Shown here: piece after piece, positions 1-57,211 of the stretch
Layout of the letters: the number at the start of each line of letters is the position of its first letter
How positions within the stretch are numbered: position 1 is the stretch's first letter
Source: an uncultured Collinsella sp.
GTDB taxonomy: Bacteria > Actinomycetota > Coriobacteriia > Coriobacteriales > Coriobacteriaceae
DNA: 64,000 nucleotides
NCBI GenBank assembly: GCA_902491935.1
Contig: CABUJN010000003.1
Location: forward strand, 1,245 to 65,244
Direction: 5' to 3'
Notes under the pieces: model-generated
The model's database searches: none
Seen by the model: the letters and a program-made list of their open reading frames with translations, nothing else
Told to the model about the DNA's origin: nothing
Made by a program: the position numbers and the translations under genes

Positions 1-30
1 TGCCGGGTTGGTGCACCATCCCCGCCCTTC

Positions 31-509
31 GTCTCAATCTGTAACATCTAGCCCAGTTTTTGCCGAGCTGCTGTTACAGAATGAGACAAACTCTCCGGCG
101 GCAAATCAATATCTCGATCTGTAACATCTAGCTCTCGATCTGTAACATCTAGCGGGGAAAATGACCTCTAACTGTTACAGATTGAGATTTTGTTTTGAGA
201 GGTTTGAGTTTGTCTCCATCTGTAACAGTTAGACCGGTTTTTGGATTCCAGATGTTACAGATCGAGACGAACCTTCAGCAATAAACTCAATGTCTCAATC
301 TGTAACATCTGGCGGGAAATATGACCCCTTACTGTTACAGATCGAGACAGACCGTCCGCGGACAACTCAAATGTCTTGATCTGTAACATCTAGAGAGGTT
401 TTTGACCCCTTACTGTTACAGATTGAGATGTTGTCTCGCGGGATTGGGGTTTGTCTCGTTCTGTAGCATCTAGACCTGTATCTGCCGAGCTAGTGTTACA
501 AATCGAGAC
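31..509. repeat. Tandem array of six 57-nt palindromic elements. Arms are 16 nt (GTCTCRATCTGTAACA / TGTTACAGATYGAGAC), the loop is 25 nt and the linker about 23 nt. A 21-bp half-site duplication lies at 112-132.
   Basis: Read directly from the sequence. The elements span 31-87, 132-188, 212-268, 292-348, 373-429 and 453-509. Start-to-start spacing is 101 (80+21), 80, 80, 81 and 80 nt. Within each element the two arms are reverse complements with 0-2 mismatches. Confidence 0.9.
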
Positions 510-551
510 AACTGCCGGGGAGGGGTCCCGTCACGGCAAGACGCCCGCCGC

Positions 552-2636
552 CTAGATACAGAACCCGGGAATCACACAGGTTAGCTTGTTTGGCTTTTCC
601 GCAGGCGTTGCGTACGTAAAGACGTCGCCGTCGTGGCCCACACGGTTTATGTAGAGCGTGCCTTCGGTCTCCGATGAGTCGGGGCTCACCGTGCGCTCCC
701 ACCAGCAGGTGTCCTTGCTCTTCCACTGGCGGACCATCGTCTCGTTCGTGGAATACGGGCTCACCTTGAGCTCGCGGAAGAGCTGATACTCCTTGCCCTC
801 GCCGTTGTAGATTTCTGCCAGGTAGTGATAGTCCTTGGCAAACGAATCGGGCGGTTGCGTACCGCACAGCTCGACCATGGCGGGCAGCCAAAGGGTTGCG
901 GGCAACTCGCTCAGACACGATGCACTGTTGGCGGCGCCAGCGTTATTCGAGACCTTTTTGACAGATTTGATGAGCGCGCGCAACTTGTTGGGCAGCAGCT
1001 TAAGGCCGTCGCCGTCGAGCCATTCCCGCAGCTCGCAAACTGCCCAGCCGGCGCTCGGCGGTTCAGCCGCAGCGTTGCGCTCGGCAATACCCGCGTCGAA
1101 CATAAACGTCAGTCCGGCCTTGCCCGTCCCGTCCAGAAGCTCATCGTGACGGATGCCCACAAGCTGCGCGCCGACCTCCAGCCCGTTGGTGAGTTTCACG
1201 CGCTTGGTACACGGATAGGGGATATGCCCATCGGCATCGAGCAGGTGATAGCGCTTGGCAATCTCGCGTGCCTCGCTACGGGTCTCGGCGGCCTTAATCT
1301 TGAGCGAAATCTCCTGCAGCTGATCCCAGGTGTAGTCGTCAAGTGAACCGCGGATGCCGTCGAGGTAGTCGGGGATGCCAAAGCCATGGGTTGCCGCCCC
1401 GATAACGCTGAGCCCCGCAACGGCTGCGATAGCGCCGCCGATAATAAAGCGGCGGCGGGTCATGGCATCGTGGCGGGCCTGATTCAGGATCTCTCGTGCG
1501 CGCTCGCCGGCGACGTCGACCTTAAGGTGCGTGCCAGAATCGATATCAATTGCGGCCTCGTCTCCTGCACCTTCGCGGCCTTCGGATTCGGCGTCGGTGA
1601 GGTATGCCGAGAGCACCTCGAGCATCTGCTGCTCGGTGGGACGATCGCACTGCTCGACTGAGAGACCCTTCATGATGATCTGGACGAGCGCCTCATCGCC
1701 CTCGCAGCGCGGCTCGAGCGGTGCCGGCTTGGTCTTGGTCTTTACGAGATAGAACGAGCCGGTTGCAGCGGCGTCCGTCGACTCAAAGTCAAACGGTTTG
1801 CGACCGCTGTAGAGCTGGTACAGAATGCTCGAAAGCGCATAGACGTCGATTGCCGGCGAACGGCGAAGGGCCGCGATGCCTTCGATATCCTGCGTGAGCA
1901 TCTCGGGCGCGGCGTATGCGGGCGTGGCAAAACGCCAGATGTCGGCGCGCCGGGTGATCGTGTCGTCGCCGAGAGCCATGGTCGCGGAGCCCATGTCGAT
2001 GAGGCAGGGGTCAAAGGAACAATCAGCAATCTGCTGCTCGAGCGTTCGGCTGGTGGTGCGGAACATGATATTGGCAGGCGACAGGTCGCGATGGATGACC
2101 GGATTCACGAGGCCTTGGGTCATCAAGAGCGCACGAAGCACGGCGTTTCCGACGGCGGCGACCATCTGGGTGGTCAGCCCGCCCGAGGCGTCGTGCGGAA
2201 GCAGGGGCAGCGCCTGCTTGAGCGAGGTGCCCTCGACCCACTCCATGAGGATGAGAGGGTCATCCTCGCACGATCCGTAGCCATAGACGCGCGGAAATCC
2301 GCGCAGGTGCGAGACGGTACACAGATGACGGTACTCCTCGAACAGCGCGGCGGTGCTGGCCAGGTGCGCTGCCGATTGCTCGGCGGAGCGGTCGGGGGCT
2401 TGGCCGGAAAGGATAGCGTTGTCCTTGAGCAGCTTGACGGCAAAGACCTCGCCGCTCGTGTTGGTCGCGCGCAGCACGTGCCCGATGTTGCCGTTGTTGC
2501 GGTGGGCCGTCTGGAGAATAAGCGTCATAAACCGACGTTTGGCGTCGTCCTCGGCGCTGGGGTCGACCGCCACGGCGGTATCGAACGTATCGAGACGGAT
2601 GAGTTTGTCGCCATAGGCGCTATCGGTAGTATCCAT
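552..2636 (-). CDS. Membrane-anchored Hanks-type Ser/Thr protein kinase with a large extracytoplasmic C-terminal domain
   Basis: Kinase motifs are present: FAVKLL (VAIK Lys), IHRDLSPANIMF (HRD loop), LIDMGSA (DFG variant) and YAAPE (APE). One TM helix, RRRFIIGGAIAAVAGLSVIGAA, follows. After it comes about 290 aa of Cys/Trp-rich domain (CWWERT). I chose the ATG at 2636 because AAGGAA lies about 6 nt upstream; the ORF track extends to 2723. Confidence 0.88.
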   Translation of the reverse strand: MDTTDSAYGDKLIRLDTFDTAVAVDPSAEDDAKRRFMTLILQTAHRNNGNIGHVLRATNTSGEVFAVKLLKDNAILSGQAPDRSAEQSAAHLASTAALFEEYRHLCTVSHLRGFPRVYGYGSCEDDPLILMEWVEGTSLKQALPLLPHDASGGLTTQMVAAVGNAVLRALLMTQGLVNPVIHRDLSPANIMFRTTSRTLEQQIADCSFDPCLIDMGSATMALGDDTITRRADIWRFATPAYAAPEMLTQDIEGIAALRRSPAIDVYALSSILYQLYSGRKPFDFESTDAAATGSFYLVKTKTKPAPLEPRCEGDEALVQIIMKGLSVEQCDRPTEQQMLEVLSAYLTDAESEGREGAGDEAAIDIDSGTHLKVDVAGERAREILNQARHDAMTRRRFIIGGAIAAVAGLSVIGAATHGFGIPDYLDGIRGSLDDYTWDQLQEISLKIKAAETRSEAREIAKRYHLLDADGHIPYPCTKRVKLTNGLEVGAQLVGIRHDELLDGTGKAGLTFMFDAGIAERNAAAEPPSAGWAVCELREWLDGDGLKLLPNKLRALIKSVKKVSNNAGAANSASCLSELPATLWLPAMVELCGTQPPDSFAKDYHYLAEIYNGEGKEYQLFRELKVSPYSTNETMVRQWKSKDTCWWERTVSPDSSETEGTLYINRVGHDGDVFTYATPAEKPNKLTCVIPGFCI

Positions 2637-2665
2637 GGCGTTCCTTTGTCTGGCATGGGTTGCCG

Positions 2666-2729
2666 CACGTATACGCGAGCAGTGCGGATATCGGTAAAGT
2701 ACCATGATAGCCGCACTGCCCACGTATAC
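2666..2729. promoter_or_regulatory. Imperfect 19-bp-arm palindrome in the kinase upstream region
   Basis: The layout is CACGTATAC-GCGA-GCAGTGCGG, then 23 nt, then CCGCACTGC-C-CACGTATAC. It lies 30-95 nt upstream of the kinase start on the minus strand. Confidence 0.35.
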
Positions 2730-2761
2730 CGCTGAGCATTGTCGTTTACGACGCAGAAGGT

Positions 2762-2805
2762 AGAAGACGAAAGACGGACGGCGACCGTCTTCCGATCGCC
2801 GTCCG
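2762..2805 (-). terminator. Rho-independent terminator after the FHA gene
   Basis: On the minus strand the stem is CGGACGGCGA / TCGCCGTCCG (10 bp), followed by TCTTTCGTCTTCT. Confidence 0.7.
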
Positions 2806-2807
2806 CG

Positions 2808-3770
2808 CTAGTCCACAATGACAAGGAATGTCGTGTAGAGACCCAGATGGAGCCTGTCGCTGTTTTCGATTTCCACTGGGGGATAGATCTTGCCGGGCTC
2901 GCGTTGGTCGCGCGGCGGCTCAATCACAATATCGCCGTCACCCGCGCCCGATTCGAGCACTGTGCCGTTGGTCGACCCAAGGCCCTGGGCGTACCAGTGC
3001 TCACCCTCAAGCCAAATGCGAAGATGCTCGCGCGATGCGTCGGCGCCCACATCGGTGATGCTGGGCGAGGTTTTGGGCAAAGAACCAATCACGGTGCCGC
3101 GCGGATCGCGTGTGAGGGGATGGATTTGCATGCCGGCGCAGTTGTCGGCATGGGTTCTGAGCAGACCGAGGTTGGGGGCGACGGTGCGCGGCTGCTCCAG
3201 GCTGCTCATAAAGCCACGTCCGACGGTAGTTTCGGTGGTGCCAAAGTGCTCGCCCGTCTTGCTGTCGCAAAAGCGCTCGACGGTGGCCACGCCCTGAACG
3301 GGATCGGCGAGCGCCCCCGTTGCCACAAAGAGCATAAGGTAAAGCGTGCTTTTCTCGCGCACGGCATTGCCGTCAAAGTTGTCGATGCGATTGAGGGCAT
3401 TTGCATATAGGCGGCTGTCCAGCTTGTAGCTGGCGAGAGCCGACATCATTTCGTTGGCGGCCGGACCGCGATAGTGCTCGGCGATTGCCTGATAGGCGGA
3501 CTCGCCGCCGCCGAGCTTGCTGCAGATTGCCGCGGAAAGGTTGAGCGTGGTGACGATAAAGTCGCTGTAGATGGCGGGCGCGCACTGGTCAGGCTTGCGA
3601 TGGACGATGTAACGGGTGAGATACGAGCGGTTGGAAGAGCATTTCTCGAGCAGGGTACTGCCGAGATAAGAGTTTCCATTGATGAGCATTCGGGCGATCT
3701 CGAGATGTTTAAGACCGCCGAACGAGCGAATATCGTTATAGAGGACCGAGCAAGGCGTCTCTGCTGCCAC
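2808..3770 (-). CDS. FHA-domain protein with an unrecognised ~220-aa N-terminal domain
   Basis: The C-terminus has FHA hallmarks: GSLPKTSPSITDVGADASREHLRIWLEGEHWYAQGLGSTNGTVL. I chose the GTG at 3770 because AAGGAGG lies 5 nt upstream; the ORF track start is 3800. Confidence 0.8.
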   Translation of the reverse strand: MAAETPCSVLYNDIRSFGGLKHLEIARMLINGNSYLGSTLLEKCSSNRSYLTRYIVHRKPDQCAPAIYSDFIVTTLNLSAAICSKLGGGESAYQAIAEHYRGPAANEMMSALASYKLDSRLYANALNRIDNFDGNAVREKSTLYLMLFVATGALADPVQGVATVERFCDSKTGEHFGTTETTVGRGFMSSLEQPRTVAPNLGLLRTHADNCAGMQIHPLTRDPRGTVIGSLPKTSPSITDVGADASREHLRIWLEGEHWYAQGLGSTNGTVLESGAGDGDIVIEPPRDQREPGKIYPPVEIENSDRLHLGLYTTFLVIVD

Positions 3771-3949
3771 GGATACCTCCTTTGATTGCTTCCTAGCCAA
3801 TATGGCGATAGGAATTAATGGCCCCCGGTGGGCGACGTATTAAATGGCTGCGCAATATATAGCGTAACCAAAGCAACATTATAGGCCACATGTTCGAAAT
3901 TGCAGGAAGACCGAGAGATTTTGGTCGGACTGAACGGAAATCCCCCTCT

Positions 3950-4006
3950 GTCTTGTTCTGTAACATTTGGATCCGGTTTTGCCCTGCATCTGTTACAGAT
4001 TGAGAC
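3950..4006. repeat. Solo copy of the 57-nt palindromic element
   Basis: GTCTTGTTCTGTAACA, then a 25-nt loop, then TGTTACAGATTGAGAC. The geometry is the same as in the 31-509 array. Confidence 0.9.
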
Positions 4007-4279
4007 AATCGGCCAGGCCCACCTCGGGCCTGCCCCGTCATCTGTGGTTTACGTGGGGGCATGCGGAGTACGGGTATACTAACCGGCGGCGAATCTGCTC
4101 CATCGCTTAGAGCTGCTGCGTCTGGACGGCGCGTGATAGGGCTGCCAAAGCGATCGCCAGCGTGCTGAGCAACGTCCTCTCTGTGCGCACCTGTTTTTGT
4201 ATGTATTAGCGCACTACCAAGCACGCCCGCGCGGCCGCATGCCGTGCCCATTGCGCGTGCAGATAAGGAACATCAACAT

Positions 4280-6529
4280 ATGCGTAATTCTGTATCCGAC
4301 GTCACCGACGCCGAGATCCTGGACGAGGCCCGCGAGGCCATGACCCAGGCTGCCTTCGATGCCGCCGATGAGGCCAATGCTGCCCAGGCCGTCGAGTCCG
4401 CTACCGAGAGCCTGCCCGCCTTTGACGAGCTGGGACTTTCGGACGAGATGCTTCGTGCTATCGAGAACCTGGGCTACACGGCGCCGACGCCCGTGCAGGC
4501 CGGCTCGATCCCCGTGGTGCTCGAGGGTCGCGACCTGCTTGCCGCCGCTCAAACCGGCACCGGCAAGACGGCCGCCTTCTTGCTGCCGACCATGAACAAT
4601 CTGGAGCACATCGCTCCGCCCAAGCCCGTGCGCGAGCGCGGCGGTCGCAATCGCCGTCGCGGCGCCAAGAAGCCCGAGGGCAACGGCCGTGGCCCCGTGA
4701 TGCTCGTCATTACCCCTACGCGCGAGCTTGCCCAGCAGATTGACGAGGTCGCGAGCAAAATCGCCGACGTCACCGGCCATGTCGCCGTGACCGTCGTGGG
4801 CGGCGTGAGCTACAAGCCGCAGACCGCTGCCCTCAAGTACGGCTGCGACATCCTGGTCGCAACGCCGGGCCGTCTGGTCGACCTGATCGAGCAGGGCGCC
4901 TGCCACCTGAACGAGGTTAAGGTCCTGGTGCTCGACGAGGCCGATCGCATGCTCGACATGGGCTTTTTGCCCGCCGTCCGCCGCATTGTGCGCGAGACGC
5001 CGGCCGAGCGCCAGACGCTGCTGTTCTCGGCGACGCTCGACGAGGAGGCCGTGGGCGAGATCACCGACCTGGTGAGCGACCCGGCCCGCGTGGAGATCGC
5101 GCCCGCCACGTCGACTGCCGACACCGTCGACCAGTTTGTGTTCCCGGTGTCCATCGAGGCCAAGAACAACCTGTTGCCCGAGTTCCTCAAGAAGGAGGGT
5201 CCGGAGCGCACCATCGTCTTTATGCGCACCAAGCATCGCGCCGACAGCTGCTGCCGTCGTCTGGAGCGTAAGGGCATCAAGGCTGCCGCGATTCACGGCA
5301 ACCGCAGCCAGGCGCAGCGCGAGCGCGCGCTTTCTGCCTTCCGCGACGGCACCGTCGACGTGCTGGTGGCAACCGATGTTCTCGCCCGCGGCATCGACAT
5401 TAGCGACGTGCGCTACGTCGTGAACTTTGACGTGCCGGCCGAGCCGACCGACTATATCCACCGCATTGGCCGTACGGGCCGCGCCGGCGAGCTGGGCTGG
5501 GCCATTACGTTTGTGACCGAGCAGGACGTCGATGAGTTCTACGAGATCGAGAAGCTCATGGACAAGACGGCCGATATTTACGAAGCCGGCGACCTGCATG
5601 TGGGTCCCAACCCGCCTGCGGTTGATCCCGAGCGCGACCCTGCGGCCTTTAAGGTGAAGAAGAAGACTAAGCGCGGCAAGTCCAAGAGCAAGAAGAAGCT
5701 TGAGCGGGCGCGTCGCGACGGCAAGCGCAACGGCGACGATTACGGCGATGTTGCCGGTCGTTCCAACCGCGGTCGCGACGAGCGCCGCGGCGACGGCGAG
5801 CGTCCGAGCCGTCCCAAGCGCGGCGGCAAGACCCGCGTGCGCGAGGGCGTTCAGGCTCGCGTGGACGAGGCTGTTGAGAGCGTGGCTCGCGAGGTAGCTG
5901 CCGAGGAGCGCGGCGGTGCTGGTGCCGCTGAGCAGCCTGCGCGCGGCAACCGTGCCGAGCGTCGTGCCAAGCAGTTCCAGGGCGAGGCACACCGCCGTCG
6001 TCGTGAGGACGAGGACCGCGGCGGTCGTCGTCGTGTCGAGCGCGAGGACGAGGGCCGCGGTTCGCGCGGTGGCAAGCGCGGTGCGGGCGACCGCCGGCGT
6101 TCCGGTCGTGATGACGAGCGCGGCGGCCGTGATGAGCGTCGCGGCGGCGAGGGTCGCGGTGAGCGTACTGCCCGTGGCGGTGAGTCCCGTGGCGGCAAGC
6201 GCTTTGAAGAGCGCGGTAGCCGCGGCGGCGAGCGTCGCGAGGGTGCTCGCGGCAATGGCGGCCGCGGCGGCGCTGGTCGTTCTAACGAGTCGCGTGATCG
6301 TCGTGACCCGCGTGCCAGCCGCGATCGTCGCGATGACTGGCGCAACTACGACGATACCCGCGAAGAGCGTCGCGGCGGCTATCGTGGTGGTCGTGGCGGC
6401 AACCAGGCCGGCTCCCGTGGCGGCCGTGCCGGCGGTCGCGATAACCGTGGCAGCTACGGCAACAGCCGTGGCGGCAAGCGCGGTGGCAGCTCCCGTCGCC
6501 CCGGCGACGGCGGCGGCAAGCGCAAGTAA
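4280..6529 (+). CDS. DEAD-box ATP-dependent RNA helicase with a ~290-aa Arg/Gly/Glu/Asp-rich C-terminal tail
   Basis: Helicase motifs AQTGTGKT, DEAD, SAT and HRIGRTGRAG are present. The tail is full of RGG/RGGR/DERRG repeats. I chose the ATG at 4280 because AAGGAA lies upstream; the ORF track start is 4244. Confidence 0.95.
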   Translation: MRNSVSDVTDAEILDEAREAMTQAAFDAADEANAAQAVESATESLPAFDELGLSDEMLRAIENLGYTAPTPVQAGSIPVVLEGRDLLAAAQTGTGKTAAFLLPTMNNLEHIAPPKPVRERGGRNRRRGAKKPEGNGRGPVMLVITPTRELAQQIDEVASKIADVTGHVAVTVVGGVSYKPQTAALKYGCDILVATPGRLVDLIEQGACHLNEVKVLVLDEADRMLDMGFLPAVRRIVRETPAERQTLLFSATLDEEAVGEITDLVSDPARVEIAPATSTADTVDQFVFPVSIEAKNNLLPEFLKKEGPERTIVFMRTKHRADSCCRRLERKGIKAAAIHGNRSQAQRERALSAFRDGTVDVLVATDVLARGIDISDVRYVVNFDVPAEPTDYIHRIGRTGRAGELGWAITFVTEQDVDEFYEIEKLMDKTADIYEAGDLHVGPNPPAVDPERDPAAFKVKKKTKRGKSKSKKKLERARRDGKRNGDDYGDVAGRSNRGRDERRGDGERPSRPKRGGKTRVREGVQARVDEAVESVAREVAAEERGGAGAAEQPARGNRAERRAKQFQGEAHRRRREDEDRGGRRRVEREDEGRGSRGGKRGAGDRRRSGRDDERGGRDERRGGEGRGERTARGGESRGGKRFEERGSRGGERREGARGNGGRGGAGRSNESRDRRDPRASRDRRDDWRNYDDTREERRGGYRGGRGGNQAGSRGGRAGGRDNRGSYGNSRGGKRGGSSRRPGDGGGKRK

Positions 6530-6562
6530 GATGCGCATCGCGCGCTAGCGTGAGACAAGCTA

Positions 6563-53229: not shown

Positions 53230-54213
53230 ATGGACCAGGACAAGACGACCGTGATGGGCGGATATGGCTCCGCACAGGCTGGCGATAGCGCCGATGCGAC
53301 TCGCGTTGTTTCCAACCCCGGTTATACCGACCCCGCCGCGACGCAGACGTCTGCCGAACCCACACGGGTTATAGGCTACGGCGATACACCACGGGATCCG
53401 TTTGATTATGCACCGCAGGACCCGTATGACAATGCGGCGCCGGACCCGTATGGCAATGCGGCGACAGATGCTTATAACAACCTGCCGCATAATCCCATTC
53501 CGCAGCCTCAGCAGACGACGTATATGCCGCGTACGGCGCAGGTCCAGTCTCGTTATGAGTCGCGCGATCCGCATGCGTGCCAGCCGTATCGCGAGTATCC
53601 CAAATCGATTCCGCAGTATGGTGAGGACGAGGAGAAGGCACCGTCGCGTTCGTCGAGCGTGATCAAGAAAATCCTGATTGTGCTGGCGATCTTCTTTGCC
53701 TTGTCGATCGTGTTCGCCATCGTGTCGGGCATGCTCAACAAGCGGGGCGCCACGACCGATGCCACGACCGAGCAGGCCGAGACCACCCAGTCTGCTGCCG
53801 TCGACCTGAGCGATATCCCGGGACAGTACTGGTCCAACGCCAAGAAGCTCCTCAAGTCGCGCGGAGCCGACCTTTCGAACGCCGTGATTCTGACCGACGA
53901 TGGCTCAACGCCCGTCATCGATTCCAACTGGGTTGTTACGAATGCCTACTATAACGACAACGGCAACCTGGAGATTCAGCTCACGCACAAGAACAGCTAT
54001 GGCAACTCGTCCGGCGGCCAAAGCGGTACCGACAGCTCGAGCTCCAATACGCTGGAGGACTTGAGCAACAAGGCGCAGGAGTTGGGAGATAAGGCGCAAG
54101 AGCTGGGCGATACGGCACAAAACCTGGGTGATACTGCTCAGAATCTGGGCGATATGGCTACCAATGCCTGGGACGCTCTGCAAAACGGCATTTCGGGCGC
54201 ACAGGGTAACTAG
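53230..54213 (+). CDS. Single-pass membrane protein with a Pro/Asp/Tyr-rich cytoplasmic N-terminus and a C-terminal heptad-repeat tail
   Basis: The TM helix is IKKILIVLAIFFALSIVFAIVSGML. A compact ~100-aa exodomain follows. The ATG at 53230 follows AAAGGAAA. Confidence 0.6.
   Translation: MDQDKTTVMGGYGSAQAGDSADATRVVSNPGYTDPAATQTSAEPTRVIGYGDTPRDPFDYAPQDPYDNAAPDPYGNAATDAYNNLPHNPIPQPQQTTYMPRTAQVQSRYESRDPHACQPYREYPKSIPQYGEDEEKAPSRSSSVIKKILIVLAIFFALSIVFAIVSGMLNKRGATTDATTEQAETTQSAAVDLSDIPGQYWSNAKKLLKSRGADLSNAVILTDDGSTPVIDSNWVVTNAYYNDNGNLEIQLTHKNSYGNSSGGQSGTDSSSSNTLEDLSNKAQELGDKAQELGDTAQNLGDTAQNLGDMATNAWDALQNGISGAQGN
54070..54174 (+). repeat. Five tandem in-frame 21-bp repeats
   Basis: The units encode KAQELGD, KAQELGD, TAQNLGD, TAQNLGD and MATNAWD. 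Confidence 0.85.
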
Positions 54214-56963: not shown

Positions 56964-57186
56964 GGGAGTAGCACCGGTTGTTGCCGTAAGGTGATGGCCG
57001 GGGGTGCGGGGCAGCTCTCAGGAGTGCGGGCTGCCGTCTGATTGTTTGAGGGTGCCAGATGTAAATAAACAGTGGAGCGGCTGCAAAAGAGCCTCCTCAC
57101 TGGGTAAAATCAGGTTGTGCCGCGGAACCCGCTCCTCAGCTAGTCACACTTCGGAAGCGCGGGCAACGCAGGTATTATCGTCTAAA

Positions 57187-57211
57187 GGGCCGGCTGCAAC
57201 CGGCCCTTTTC
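57187..57211. terminator. Hairpin terminator with no adjacent plus-strand ORF
   Basis: GGGCCGG, a 6-nt loop, CCGGCCC, then TTTTCT. On the minus strand it is followed by TTTAGA. Confidence 0.55.

What the first reader, a model, noticed from the sequence alone, without database searches (positions are those of the whole stretch)
31..509. Strictly 80-bp-periodic array of 57-nt palindromic elements downstream of the kinase gene
Six elements with 16-nt reverse-complementary arms (GTCTCRATCTGTAACA ... TGTTACAGATYGAGAC) and exactly 25-nt loops recur every 80-81 nt. One extra 21-bp half-site duplication (112-132 duplicates 133-153) is the only break in phase.

The arms are conserved. The loops and the 23-nt linkers are mosaics of a few shared blocks: TCTAG, GGTTTTTG, GCCGAGCT and ATGACCCCTTAC. 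Some linkers look related by reverse complementation; for example, AAACTC begins both linker 1 and the reverse complement of linker 2.

The window starts inside or next to the array, so it may extend further left.

This is not CRISPR-like, because each spacer contains the inverted repeat. It resembles REP/BIME-type or other small palindromic dispersed elements, but I do not recognise the sequence family. On the minus strand it would form six consecutive stable hairpins in the 3' region of the kinase transcript.
Basis: seen in the sequence. Interest (0 to 1): 0.7.

Follow-up and report, generated by a model that had tools for sequence, protein, structure and literature searches.

The report
Palindromic repeat array tied to nuclease gene
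The array is real and belongs to a Collinsella-wide family of intergenic palindromic repeats that always bracket one nuclease-type gene. That gene's relatives in other Actinomycetota carry their own flanking repeats, an arrangement like REP elements and their RAYT transposases but built on an unrelated protein.

Summary
Window 31-509 holds six 57-bp units (16-nt arm, exactly 25-nt loop, 16-nt inverted arm) at an 80/81-bp period, plus one extra 21-bp half-site. A seventh, solitary unit lies at 3950-4006.

The genome is Collinsella. The unit belongs to a genus-wide family found in about two dozen conserved intergenic sites, usually as arrays of 2-3 units whose number varies between species.

Variable arm positions do not covary, and G:U is not favoured on the transcribed strand. 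Between orthologous units, the arms and a central A/T tract change about three times more slowly than flanking DNA. This fits double-stranded protein-binding half-sites spaced about 40 bp apart, not selected hairpins.

No RAYT, Rfam family or parent IS was found. Instead, a single-copy 356-aa gene is bracketed by these arrays in 71 of 71 loci. It has an AbiEi-like DNA-binding part and a Vsr/DUF559-like nuclease part, and in a syntenic reference it lies about 6 kb left of the window.

Twelve other family members are all flanked by their own repeats: a paralog, a 59% ortholog with the same 16+25+16 geometry, other Coriobacteriia-like contigs and Tsukamurella.

Best reading: these are cognate binding sites of this protein that spread in a REPIN-RAYT-like way. 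Binding and nuclease activity are inferred, not shown.

The parts
31..87 (.). Unit 1: arm GTCTCAATCTGTAACA (31-46), 25-nt loop (47-71), arm TGTTACAGAATGAGAC (72-87). This is the copA-side end of the array.
88..110 (.). Linker 1, 23 nt (AAACTCTCCGGCGGCAAATCAAT).
111..131 (.). Extra half-site (ATCTCGATCTGTAACATCTAG). It is a perfect 21-bp tandem duplicate of the first arm of unit 2 (TRF 112-153, period 21, 100%) and is the only break in phase.
132..188 (.). Unit 2. The loop centre is AAAA.
189..211 (.). Linker 2, 23 nt.
212..268 (.). Unit 3. Its loop polarity is inverted relative to units 2, 4 and 5.
269..291 (.). Linker 3, 23 nt.
292..348 (.). Unit 4.
349..372 (.). Linker 4, 24 nt, with a CCGCGG centre.
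373..429 (.). Unit 5.
430..452 (.). Linker 5, 23 nt.
453..509 (.). Unit 6, the most degenerate (2+1 arm mismatches). It sits 43 nt downstream of the kinase stop codon. The boundary on this side is conserved in all orthologous loci.
3950..4006 (.). Solitary seventh unit of the same family, between the divergent FHA gene (2808-3800, -) and a DEAD/DEAH helicase gene (about 4244-6529, +). Orthologous loci carry 1 or 2 units here.
552..2723 (-). Neighbouring gene only, not part of the system: Ser/Thr kinase with a DUF6273 domain. The reference annotation gives 694 aa, so the true start is probably near 2636.

Best explanation
The array is a cluster of six paired double-stranded-DNA binding sites, 13 half-sites about 40 bp apart in alternating orientation. 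The protein I think binds them is a single-copy 356-aa product referred to here as p364 (WP_148332043.1 in C. aerofaciens). In a syntenic reference genome its gene lies about 6 kb beyond the left edge of the window.

Anatomy of p364. It has an AbiEi-like winged-helix N-terminal part and a Vsr/DUF559-like PD-(D/E)xK nuclease C-terminal part.

Inferred mode of action. One protein molecule binds each roughly 20-24-bp arm. Two molecules therefore occupy one 57-bp unit across a conserved central A/T tract. This follows what has been shown for AbiEi-family proteins on pairs of 23-bp inverted repeats, and for the homodimeric Vsr-like homing endonuclease I-Bth0305I, which footprints about 60 bp.

Distribution. 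The gene is itself bracketed by arrays of the same units. Further arrays lie mostly within 10 kb of it, plus roughly two dozen conserved intergenic sites per genome.

Array dynamics. Unit number changes in 80-bp steps by unequal recombination or slippage. This is shown by comparing orthologous loci.

Overall the system behaves like a REPIN-RAYT pair: a vertically inherited, single-copy gene flanked by its cognate palindromic repeats, which are also dispersed. It is built on an unrelated, non-HUH protein that reads double-stranded sites.

Shown here: the anatomy, the distribution, the constraint on arms and centre, the gene-repeat association and its generality.

Inferred: binding, nuclease activity, and that the protein promotes spread or maintenance of the repeats.
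For: 1. Geometry. Across 119 Collinsella loci there are 769 half-sites. The spacing across the loop is exactly 41 in 352 of 355 cases, and across the linker it is 39 or 40. Array periods are 80 (127 cases) or 81 (84 cases).

2. Arms behave as independent motif copies. Pairing at variable positions 1:57, 5:53 and 6:52 is 0.53, 0.66 and 0.53, against 0.54, 0.68 and 0.50 expected. There is no consistent G:U versus A:C bias relative to transcription.

3. Constraint. Between orthologous units, differences per site are 0.127 in flanks, 0.040 and 0.038 in the arms, 0.091 in the loop, and 0.00-0.04 in the central A/T tract at positions 28-30.

4. Gene association. p364 is bracketed on both sides in 9 of 9 genome loci and 62 of 62 metagenome loci with complete flanks.

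5. Local clustering. In 100 kb of the C. aerofaciens reference, all six clusters lie within 10 kb of the gene, out of 19 blastn places in the 900-kb record. The window shows the same pattern: two sites in its first 4 kb and none in the next 60 kb.

6. Generality.
- A 36%-identical paralog is bracketed by a different dispersed family, GAGCGTGGATWWTC.
- A 59%-identical syntenic ortholog is bracketed by arrays with 16-nt arms, 25-nt gaps and an 81-82 period but a diverged arm sequence.
- Tsukamurella and four further contigs have their own flanking palindromes.
- Upstream-versus-downstream flank similarity reaches the 99th percentile of 499 controls in 9 of 11 genes tested.
- One Tsukamurella repeat occurs at 10 places in 5 records.

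7. The protein. The AlphaFold2 model has pLDDT 90.4. Foldseek matches the AbiEi antitoxin 6y8q (probability 0.97) and the I-Bth0305I Vsr-like catalytic domain 3r3p (probability 0.99, TM-score 0.63 normalised to the target). D264, E278, G281, E302 and R305 are invariant, and D280 and K284 are at least 90% conserved, in 44 diverse members.

8. Precedent. AbiEi-family monomers bind pairs of 23-bp inverted repeats, and the Rv2827c promoter has two pairs in tandem (PMC7319586). I-Bth0305I is a homodimer that footprints about 60 bp (PMC3239194).
Against: - No experiment links the protein to the arms.
- The sequence-family assignments are weak. Pfam DUF559 gives E = 0.004, below its cut-off; AbiEi_4 matches 3 of 44 members. 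All Foldseek E-values are 0.01 or worse.
- Whether the window's own genome encodes p364 was not verified, because the window ends before that locus.
- The arrays sit at only about 23 orthologous sites shared between closely related species. Recent mobility is therefore not demonstrated, and no empty-versus-filled site was found.
- Arm conservation could also come from gene conversion between units.
- Two of eleven relatives have repeats on one side only.
- Co-occurrence of the gene and the repeat family across genomes could not be tested.
Confidence: 0.55

Rival explanations
1. p364-family genes are homing-endonuclease-like passengers that inserted into pre-existing arrays. The arrays would serve another host function, for example sites for a nucleoid protein or gyrase as proposed for BIMEs. 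The flanking repeats would then be the split target rather than operators.
For: The C-terminal domain resembles a homing endonuclease catalytic domain. The genes sit inside or between arrays. In the related genus, the gene upstream of p364 (hyp235) forms an overlapping gene pair with the p364 homolog and no array lies between them. This suggests that the array between the two genes in Collinsella is secondary.
Against: The gene is single-copy and syntenic across Collinsella and in related genera. Each paralog or ortholog has its own repeat family, and the array geometry is conserved with the protein lineage. Neither is expected if the repeats belonged to an unrelated host system. The arrays also cluster around the gene.
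Confidence: 0.15
2. The units act as RNA hairpins in 3' UTRs, as mRNA stabilisers or terminator-like structures, which is the first reader's suggestion for the kinase transcript.
For: The array folds far better than shuffled sequence on both strands: -248.5 against -158.3 +/- 6.5 kcal/mol, z = -13.9, for the minus strand. Many arrays follow gene ends.
Against: There is no covariation at variable stem positions and no consistent G:U preference on the transcribed strand. About 39 of 146 arrays lie between divergent genes. There is no T-tract or terminator-like site. Many arrays lie downstream of a separate, conventional terminator hairpin. The conserved central A/T tract and exact spacing are not explained. 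There is no Rfam hit.
Confidence: 0.1
3. A classical REP/BIME family mobilised in trans by a RAYT (IS200/IS605-like Y1 HUH transposase) encoded elsewhere in the genome.
For: The elements are extragenic palindromic units in alternating orientation with fixed-length linkers, as in BIME-2. A conserved TAG lies next to each arm.
Against: The arms are not themselves hairpins. No Y1-type ORF lies next to arrays in 1.74 Mb. The single IS200 TnpA found interrupts a unit in one strain. The flanked single-copy gene is a different protein. There are only about two dozen sites per genome.
Confidence: 0.07
4. MITE-like remnants of an insertion sequence whose terminal inverted repeats are the 16-nt arms, amplified locally as a minisatellite with no dedicated protein.
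For: The arms look like terminal inverted repeats. Copy number changes in 80-bp steps.
Against: No long-range arm pairs enclosing a transposase were found; the isolated half-sites are units with one decayed arm. No target-site duplication is seen, since the flanks WWT/AWW extend the palindrome. Arms and loop centre are under constraint at orthologous sites. This model does not explain the gene association in 71 of 71 loci or in distant relatives.
Confidence: 0.05

Closest known systems
REPIN-RAYT systems and REP/BIME arrays of Proteobacteria
   Same: Short extragenic palindromic units made of two inverted repeats with a less conserved spacer. Arrays show alternating orientation and fixed-length linkers. 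A single-copy, vertically inherited, syntenic gene is flanked by its cognate repeats, and different paralogs each have their own repeat family (definition in 10.1101/2021.07.10.451892).
   Different: The associated protein is not an HUH/Y1 transposase but an AbiEi-like plus Vsr-like nuclease. The arms are not hairpins themselves and show no pairing selection, so recognition is probably of double-stranded DNA. Copy number is tens rather than hundreds. The repeats cluster strongly around the gene. The host phylum is Actinomycetota.
AbiEi-family operators (S. agalactiae PabiE; M. tuberculosis Prv2827c)
   Same: Pairs of roughly 23-bp inverted repeats at fixed gaps, several pairs in tandem, directly upstream of a gene for an AbiEi-fold protein. 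Monomers bind one repeat each and bend the DNA (PMC7319586). The N-terminal part of p364 matches the AbiEi structure.
   Different: There is no AbiEii (DUF1814) toxin partner; the C-terminal part is a nuclease fold instead. Repeats lie on both sides of the gene and at many other loci, including the array in this window. Arrays reach six pairs.
I-Bth0305I (EDxHD homing endonuclease with a Vsr-like catalytic domain)
   Same: Multidomain protein with a C-terminal Vsr-like nuclease. It is a homodimer with a roughly 60-bp pseudopalindromic footprint (PMC3239194), comparable with the 57-bp unit.
   Different: I-Bth0305I is intron-encoded in a phage gene and mobile by homing. Here the gene is chromosomal, single-copy and syntenic, and its presumed sites are repeated in arrays.
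MIRU-type intergenic minisatellites of mycobacteria (from general knowledge)
   Same: Intergenic tandem units of 40-100 bp whose number varies between close relatives.
   Different: MIRUs are direct repeats. They lack the paired inverted arms, and I know of no flanked cognate gene.

Membership tests
REP/BIME | Short extragenic imperfect palindromes | tested here: met
   132 of 146 arrays are clear of called ORFs. The unit is a 57-bp palindrome.
REP/BIME | Clusters of units in alternating orientation separated by linkers of fixed length | tested here: met
   Half-site spacing is 41 across the loop and 39 or 40 across the linker. Periods are 80 or 81.
REP/BIME | Each REP is itself a stem-loop with an adjacent conserved tetranucleotide (GTAG) | tested here: not met
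   The 16-nt arm has no internal stem beyond TGTAACA. Only a TAG at loop positions 19-21 is conserved.
REPIN-RAYT | Two inverted repeats with a short, less conserved spacer as the repeated unit | tested here: met
   Position frequency matrix of 351 unique units.
REPIN-RAYT | A single-copy, vertically inherited gene flanked by the cognate repeats | tested here: met
   71 of 71 loci are flanked. There is one copy in the 900-kb record. Synteny is kept in Collinsella and related genera.
REPIN-RAYT | The flanked gene is a Y1 HUH (IS200-like) transposase | tested here: not met
   The flanked gene has an AbiEi-like plus Vsr-like fold. The only IS200 TnpA found is an insertion into one unit.
MITE | Terminal inverted repeats plus a target-site duplication | tested here: not met
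   Inverted arms are present, but the outer flanks WWT...AWW are reverse complements of each other, not direct duplications.
MITE | A parent autonomous element with the same termini | tested here: not met
   No long-range arm pairs occur in about 0.9 Mb; the isolated half-sites are decayed units. Complete genomes were not searched.
CRISPR | Direct repeats in one orientation separated by unique spacers | tested here: not met
   Orientation alternates strictly. Loops and linkers share blocks.
AbiEi-type operator | Pairs of roughly 23-bp inverted repeats at a fixed gap next to a gene for an AbiEi-fold protein | tested here: met
   Arrays end about 20 nt before the p364 start codon. Foldseek matches 6y8q with probability 0.97. 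The window's own array lies about 6 kb from the gene.
AbiEi-type operator | Operon partner AbiEii (DUF1814 nucleotidyltransferase toxin) | tested here: not met
   The neighbours are a hypothetical 235-aa protein with no Pfam match and an amidohydrolase.
AbiEi-type operator | Demonstrated binding of the protein to the repeats | not testable with these tools
   Needs gel-shift, footprinting or ChIP experiments.
Rfam RNA families | A covariance-model match at the gathering score | tested here: not met
   The only window hit is Collinsella-1 at 57010-57206. Hits in 1-4300 are all far below their thresholds.
Intrinsic terminators | GC-rich hairpin followed by a T-tract | tested here: not met
   No terminator-like sites in 1-700.

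The most novel reading that the evidence does not exclude
A large family of Actinomycetota proteins (about 4,900 clusters at 50% identity), each an AbiEi-like DNA-binding module fused to a Vsr/DUF559-like nuclease, forms a second, independently evolved class of repeat-associated nucleases. Each member would maintain and spread its own population of double-stranded palindromic sites, arranged in phased arrays, within the host chromosome. That would be a non-HUH counterpart of REPIN-RAYT systems. The Collinsella 80-bp arrays would be its most developed example so far.
Probability: 0.35. Interest if true: 0.85.

Novelty: new variant of a known kind. Interest (0 to 1): 0.72.

Why it matters
REP elements with RAYT transposases are so far the only well-described case of short repeats living long-term with a dedicated, vertically inherited host-encoded enzyme, and they are essentially a proteobacterial story.

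Here the same logic appears in Actinomycetota with an unrelated protein: a gene bracketed by its own repeats, paralog-specific repeat families, and dispersed copies. The sites also appear to be read as double-stranded DNA.

If confirmed, this would:
- give a function to a large family of hypothetical proteins;
- explain hypervariable intergenic arrays in a common human gut genus, which could be useful for strain typing;
- provide a simple system for testing how a site-specific nuclease shapes repeat populations.

Tried and rejected
- Rfam at gathering and permissive thresholds: no family for the array.
- tRNA scan: none.
- Promoter and terminator scans of the array and of the p364 flanks: nothing.
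- Exact-protein look-up of the kinase ORF failed, probably because my GTG start is 29 codons too far upstream.
- Plain Pfam, NCBIfam and PDB sequence searches of p364 gave nothing significant. The single-sequence AlphaFold model was useless, pLDDT 40.
- The first homolog search and the metagenome locus scan returned only close Collinsella orthologs. They confirmed the flanking arrays but not generality. Distant members came from the representative search and a profile search.
- RAYT hypothesis: tblastn with the local IS200 TnpA, even at E = 1, found no Y1-like ORF near arrays.
- An apparent empty site at reference position 443 kb was a spurious flank match, so no insertion footprint was obtained.
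- Co-absence test for the second repeat family: the 900-kb reference record lacks the paralog and has only 2 weak family-2 places. The rest of that genome was not available, so this is inconclusive.
- Literature searches for the arm sequence, Collinsella palindromic repeats and DUF559 found no prior description.

Full report
**1.

Window 31-509 contains 13 copies of the motif TCTCRATCTGTAACA (2 mismatches or fewer) in strictly alternating orientation. Across the whole window there are 17 matches at 3 mismatches or fewer, against 1.27 expected (maximum 4 in 100 shuffles).

They form six 57-bp units at 31-87, 132-188, 212-268, 292-348, 373-429 and 453-509. Each unit has 16-nt arms and an exactly 25-nt loop. 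Linkers are 23 or 24 nt, giving periods of 80, 80, 81 and 80.

The only break in phase is a perfect 21-bp duplication of a half-site, 112-132 = 133-153.

The array does not run off the left edge. Bases 1-7 do not match an arm at the expected phase, and in five orthologous loci unique sequence follows the array before copA.

A seventh, solitary unit lies at 3950-4006.

**2. Organism and family**

The window carries the Collinsella-1 RNA (RF01700, 221.9 bits) at 57010-57206, and the loci most similar to it are from Collinsella.

Those loci hold 769 half-sites and 366 units. The geometry is very regular:

| Measure | Value |
|---|---|
| Spacing across the loop | 41 in 352 of 355 cases |
| Spacing across the linker | 39 (136 cases) or 40 (87 cases) |
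| Array period | 80 (127 cases) or 81 (84 cases) |

Arrays usually have 2-3 units. The window's six is the largest seen.

The consensus is WWT-R-TCTC-R-ATCTGTAACA-nn-TAG-(GC-rich)-AAA/TTT-(GC-rich)-CTA-nn-TGTTACAGAT-Y-GAGA-Y-AWW. The conserved arm is therefore about 20-24 bp. The loop has a central A/T tract with polarity, found in either orientation.

Arrays start and end with complete units and are intergenic: 132 of 146 are clear of called ORFs. About equal numbers lie between convergent (41), divergent (39) and tandem (40) gene pairs. Many lie just beyond a conventional terminator hairpin.

No Rfam family matches. The array has no promoter-like or terminator-like sites. I found no paper describing it.

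**3. Hairpin or double-stranded site?**

The array folds far better than shuffled sequence on both strands (z = -13.9 and -11.4). Any inverted repeat would do so, so this is not informative on its own.

Evidence against selection for pairing:
- The variable arm positions 1:57, 5:53 and 6:52 pair at 0.53, 0.66 and 0.53. Chance expectation is 0.54, 0.68 and 0.50.
- In tandem gene contexts, A:C mismatches are as frequent as G:U pairs on the transcribed strand.

Evidence for constraint on the sequence itself comes from orthologous units of different species:

| Region | Differences per site |
|---|---|
| Flanking intergenic DNA | 0.127 |
| Arms | 0.040 and 0.038 |
| Loop (whole) | 0.091 |
| Central A/T tract, positions 28-30 | 0.00-0.04 |

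Exact spacing, independently conserved arms and a conserved A/T centre are what a protein reading double-stranded half-sites would produce. They are not what a selected RNA or single-stranded-DNA stem would produce.

**4. Dynamics**

- The kinase-copA spacer holds 1 unit (L050, L060), 2 units (L044), 5 units (L066, L011) or 6 units (window). The proximal boundary is conserved in all of them.
- The site upstream of the FHA gene holds 1 unit (window, L044, L066) or 2 units (L050, L060, L098). The single unit looks like an in-register recombinant of the two.
- The 146 arrays fall into only 23 orthologous sites.

The family is therefore low-copy and positionally conserved. Unit number changes in 80-bp steps. 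No empty-versus-filled site was found, so recent transposition is not shown.

**5. The associated gene**

In nine loci a gene of about 356 aa (referred to here as p364) is bracketed by arrays on both sides. The last upstream arm ends about 20 nt before the start codon. The first downstream arm begins 9-45 nt after the stop codon. All 62 metagenome loci with complete flanks show the same arrangement.

In C. aerofaciens TSDC17.2-1.1 (NZ_OY725717.1) the gene order is: gltB, gltD, a hypothetical 235-aa gene, p364, an amidohydrolase, a hypothetical gene, csoR, an HMA-domain gene, copA, [array], the DUF6273 kinase, and the FHA gene. In that syntenic reference, p364 lies about 6 kb beyond the window's left edge.

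In the 100 kb examined there, all six clusters lie within 10 kb of the gene and none lies in the remaining 80 kb. The whole 900-kb record has 19 blastn places. The window mirrors this pattern: two sites in the first 4 kb, none in the next 60 kb. Of the 146 arrays from the genome scan, 50 map to this neighbourhood.

**6. What the protein is**

Plain sequence searches are nearly silent. The family is nevertheless large: 4,896 clusters at 50% identity with E < 0.001.

With an alignment of 44 diverse members, AlphaFold2 gives pLDDT 90.4. Foldseek matches:
- the AbiEi antitoxin 6y8q (probability 0.97);
- the Vsr-like catalytic domain of the homing endonuclease I-Bth0305I, 3r3p (probability 0.99, TM-score 0.63 normalised to the target);
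- other PD-(D/E)xK nucleases, more weakly.

All Foldseek E-values are weak (0.01 or worse). Pfam gives only sub-threshold DUF559 and AbiEi_4 matches.

D264, E278, G281, E302 and R305 are invariant, and D280 and K284 are at least 90% conserved. This is consistent with an active nuclease site.

**7. Generality**

| Family member | What flanks it |
|---|---|
| Collinsella paralog, 36% identity (L025, L043, L048, L085) | Both sides: a different family (GAGCGTGGATWWTC; 22-nt tandem copies plus a palindromic pair). Further copies lie a few kb away and in other loci. |
| Ortholog, 59% identity, same synteny (L223) | Both sides: arrays with 16-nt arms, 25-nt gaps and an 81-82-bp period, but a diverged arm sequence |
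| L213, L215, L216, L219, L221 and two Tsukamurella genes | Their own palindromic units. Several have roughly 20-nt arms and 21-30-nt gaps. |
| L220, L222 | Repeats on one side only |

Upstream-versus-downstream flank similarity reaches the 99th percentile of 499 controls in 9 of 11 genes tested. One Tsukamurella repeat occurs at 10 intergenic places in 5 records.

The orthologs in related genera keep the copA-csoR...gltD neighbourhood. The gene is therefore inherited vertically.

**8. Interpretation**

The pattern has four parts: a single-copy syntenic gene; flanking by cognate repeats; a separate repeat family for each paralog; and dispersed copies. This is the logic of REPIN-RAYT systems (10.1101/2021.07.10.451892).

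The defining HUH/Y1 transposase is absent, however. The only IS200 TnpA in 1.74 Mb of loci interrupts a unit in one strain.

The closest mechanistic precedents are:
- AbiEi-family proteins. Their monomers bind pairs of 23-bp inverted repeats, and the Rv2827c promoter carries two such pairs in tandem (PMC7319586).
- I-Bth0305I, a homodimer with a Vsr-like nuclease domain that footprints about 60 bp (PMC3239194).

I therefore read each arm as a binding site for one p364 molecule and each 57-bp unit as a two-molecule site with a bend or cleavage centre at the A/T tract. The window's array would be one of the satellite site clusters around the gene.

Binding, cleavage and any role of the nuclease in spreading or homogenising the units are inferences.

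The main rival is that the gene is a homing-type passenger in arrays that serve another host function. RNA-hairpin, RAYT-REP and MITE readings are each contradicted by at least one test above.

**9. Verdict**

The array is real and strongly non-random, and the kinase gene is irrelevant to it. It is a member of an undescribed Collinsella repeat family.

The broader lead is a large family of AbiEi-like/Vsr-like nuclease genes in Actinomycetota, each bracketed by its own palindromic repeats. As far as I could find this has not been described. I rate it a new variant of the repeat-plus-cognate-enzyme kind.

Noticed in passing
window 57010-57206 (+): Full-length Collinsella-1 RNA (Rfam RF01700, 221.9 bits, E = 5.8e-60). 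It is the only Rfam family in the window and identifies the genus.
   Followed up: partly
L025 1430-1577, 2853-2972 and 7135-7294; also L043, L048, L085, L089, L091, L103, L115: A second dispersed Collinsella repeat family, GAGCGTGGATWWTC, made of 22-nt tandem copies plus a palindromic pair. It brackets a 36%-identical paralog of the array-associated gene and recurs a few kb away. It is absent from the window.
   Followed up: partly
L218 22699-23341 (NZ_OY725717.1 422699-423341): An IS200/IS605 tnpA is inserted into a family-1 unit between the Nramp gene and the next gene, in one strain only. This resembles the known tendency of IS elements to target REPs.
   Followed up: partly
L130 4933-5640; L220 2282-3004; L222 2234-3004; L223 1019-1765: A hypothetical protein of 235-256 aa with no Pfam match always lies directly upstream of the nuclease-type gene (44% identity between genera). 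In the related genus the two genes overlap by 4 nt. The two-gene cassette is inverted relative to gltD between genera.
   Followed up: partly
L050 about 3700-3960 (orthologous to the window's left edge): In one species the synteny breaks exactly at the distal side of the single unit. A large alanine-rich surface-protein-like gene replaces copA, and the break lies inside what is a linker in other species.
   Followed up: no
L066 about 5560-5600 and orthologs, just left of the window: A palindrome, ACCCCCAGGGGGT, lies upstream of copA. It looks like a CsoR-type operator (from general knowledge), next to a csoR gene in the reference.
   Followed up: no
window 53387-53463 and 54056-54158: Tandem repeats with 24-nt and 21-nt periods (about 3-3.6 copies, 76-92% matches). 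Periods that are multiples of three suggest repeats within a coding sequence.
   Followed up: no
window 4214-6538 (-) versus 4244-6529 (+): Two long overlapping ORFs lie on opposite strands. GC3 and the reference annotation (DEAD/DEAH helicase) favour the + strand, which places the solitary unit at 3950-4006 between divergent genes.
   Followed up: partly
L120-L129 (IMG/VR contigs): Ten contigs classed as viral carry the same units. None encodes the nuclease-type gene, and seven share a weak 13-residue match to the same query, so they may come from the same region. Whether they are prophage flanks or misclassified host DNA was not examined.
   Followed up: no
all loci, arm positions 1 and 6: Two half-site variants exist, A-TCTC-A and G-TCTC-G. 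Positions 1 and 6 are correlated within an arm (p = 6e-7). They are anti-correlated across a linker (p = 7e-5) and independent across a loop. This hints at an alternating arrangement like the Y/Z REP types in BIMEs.
   Followed up: partly
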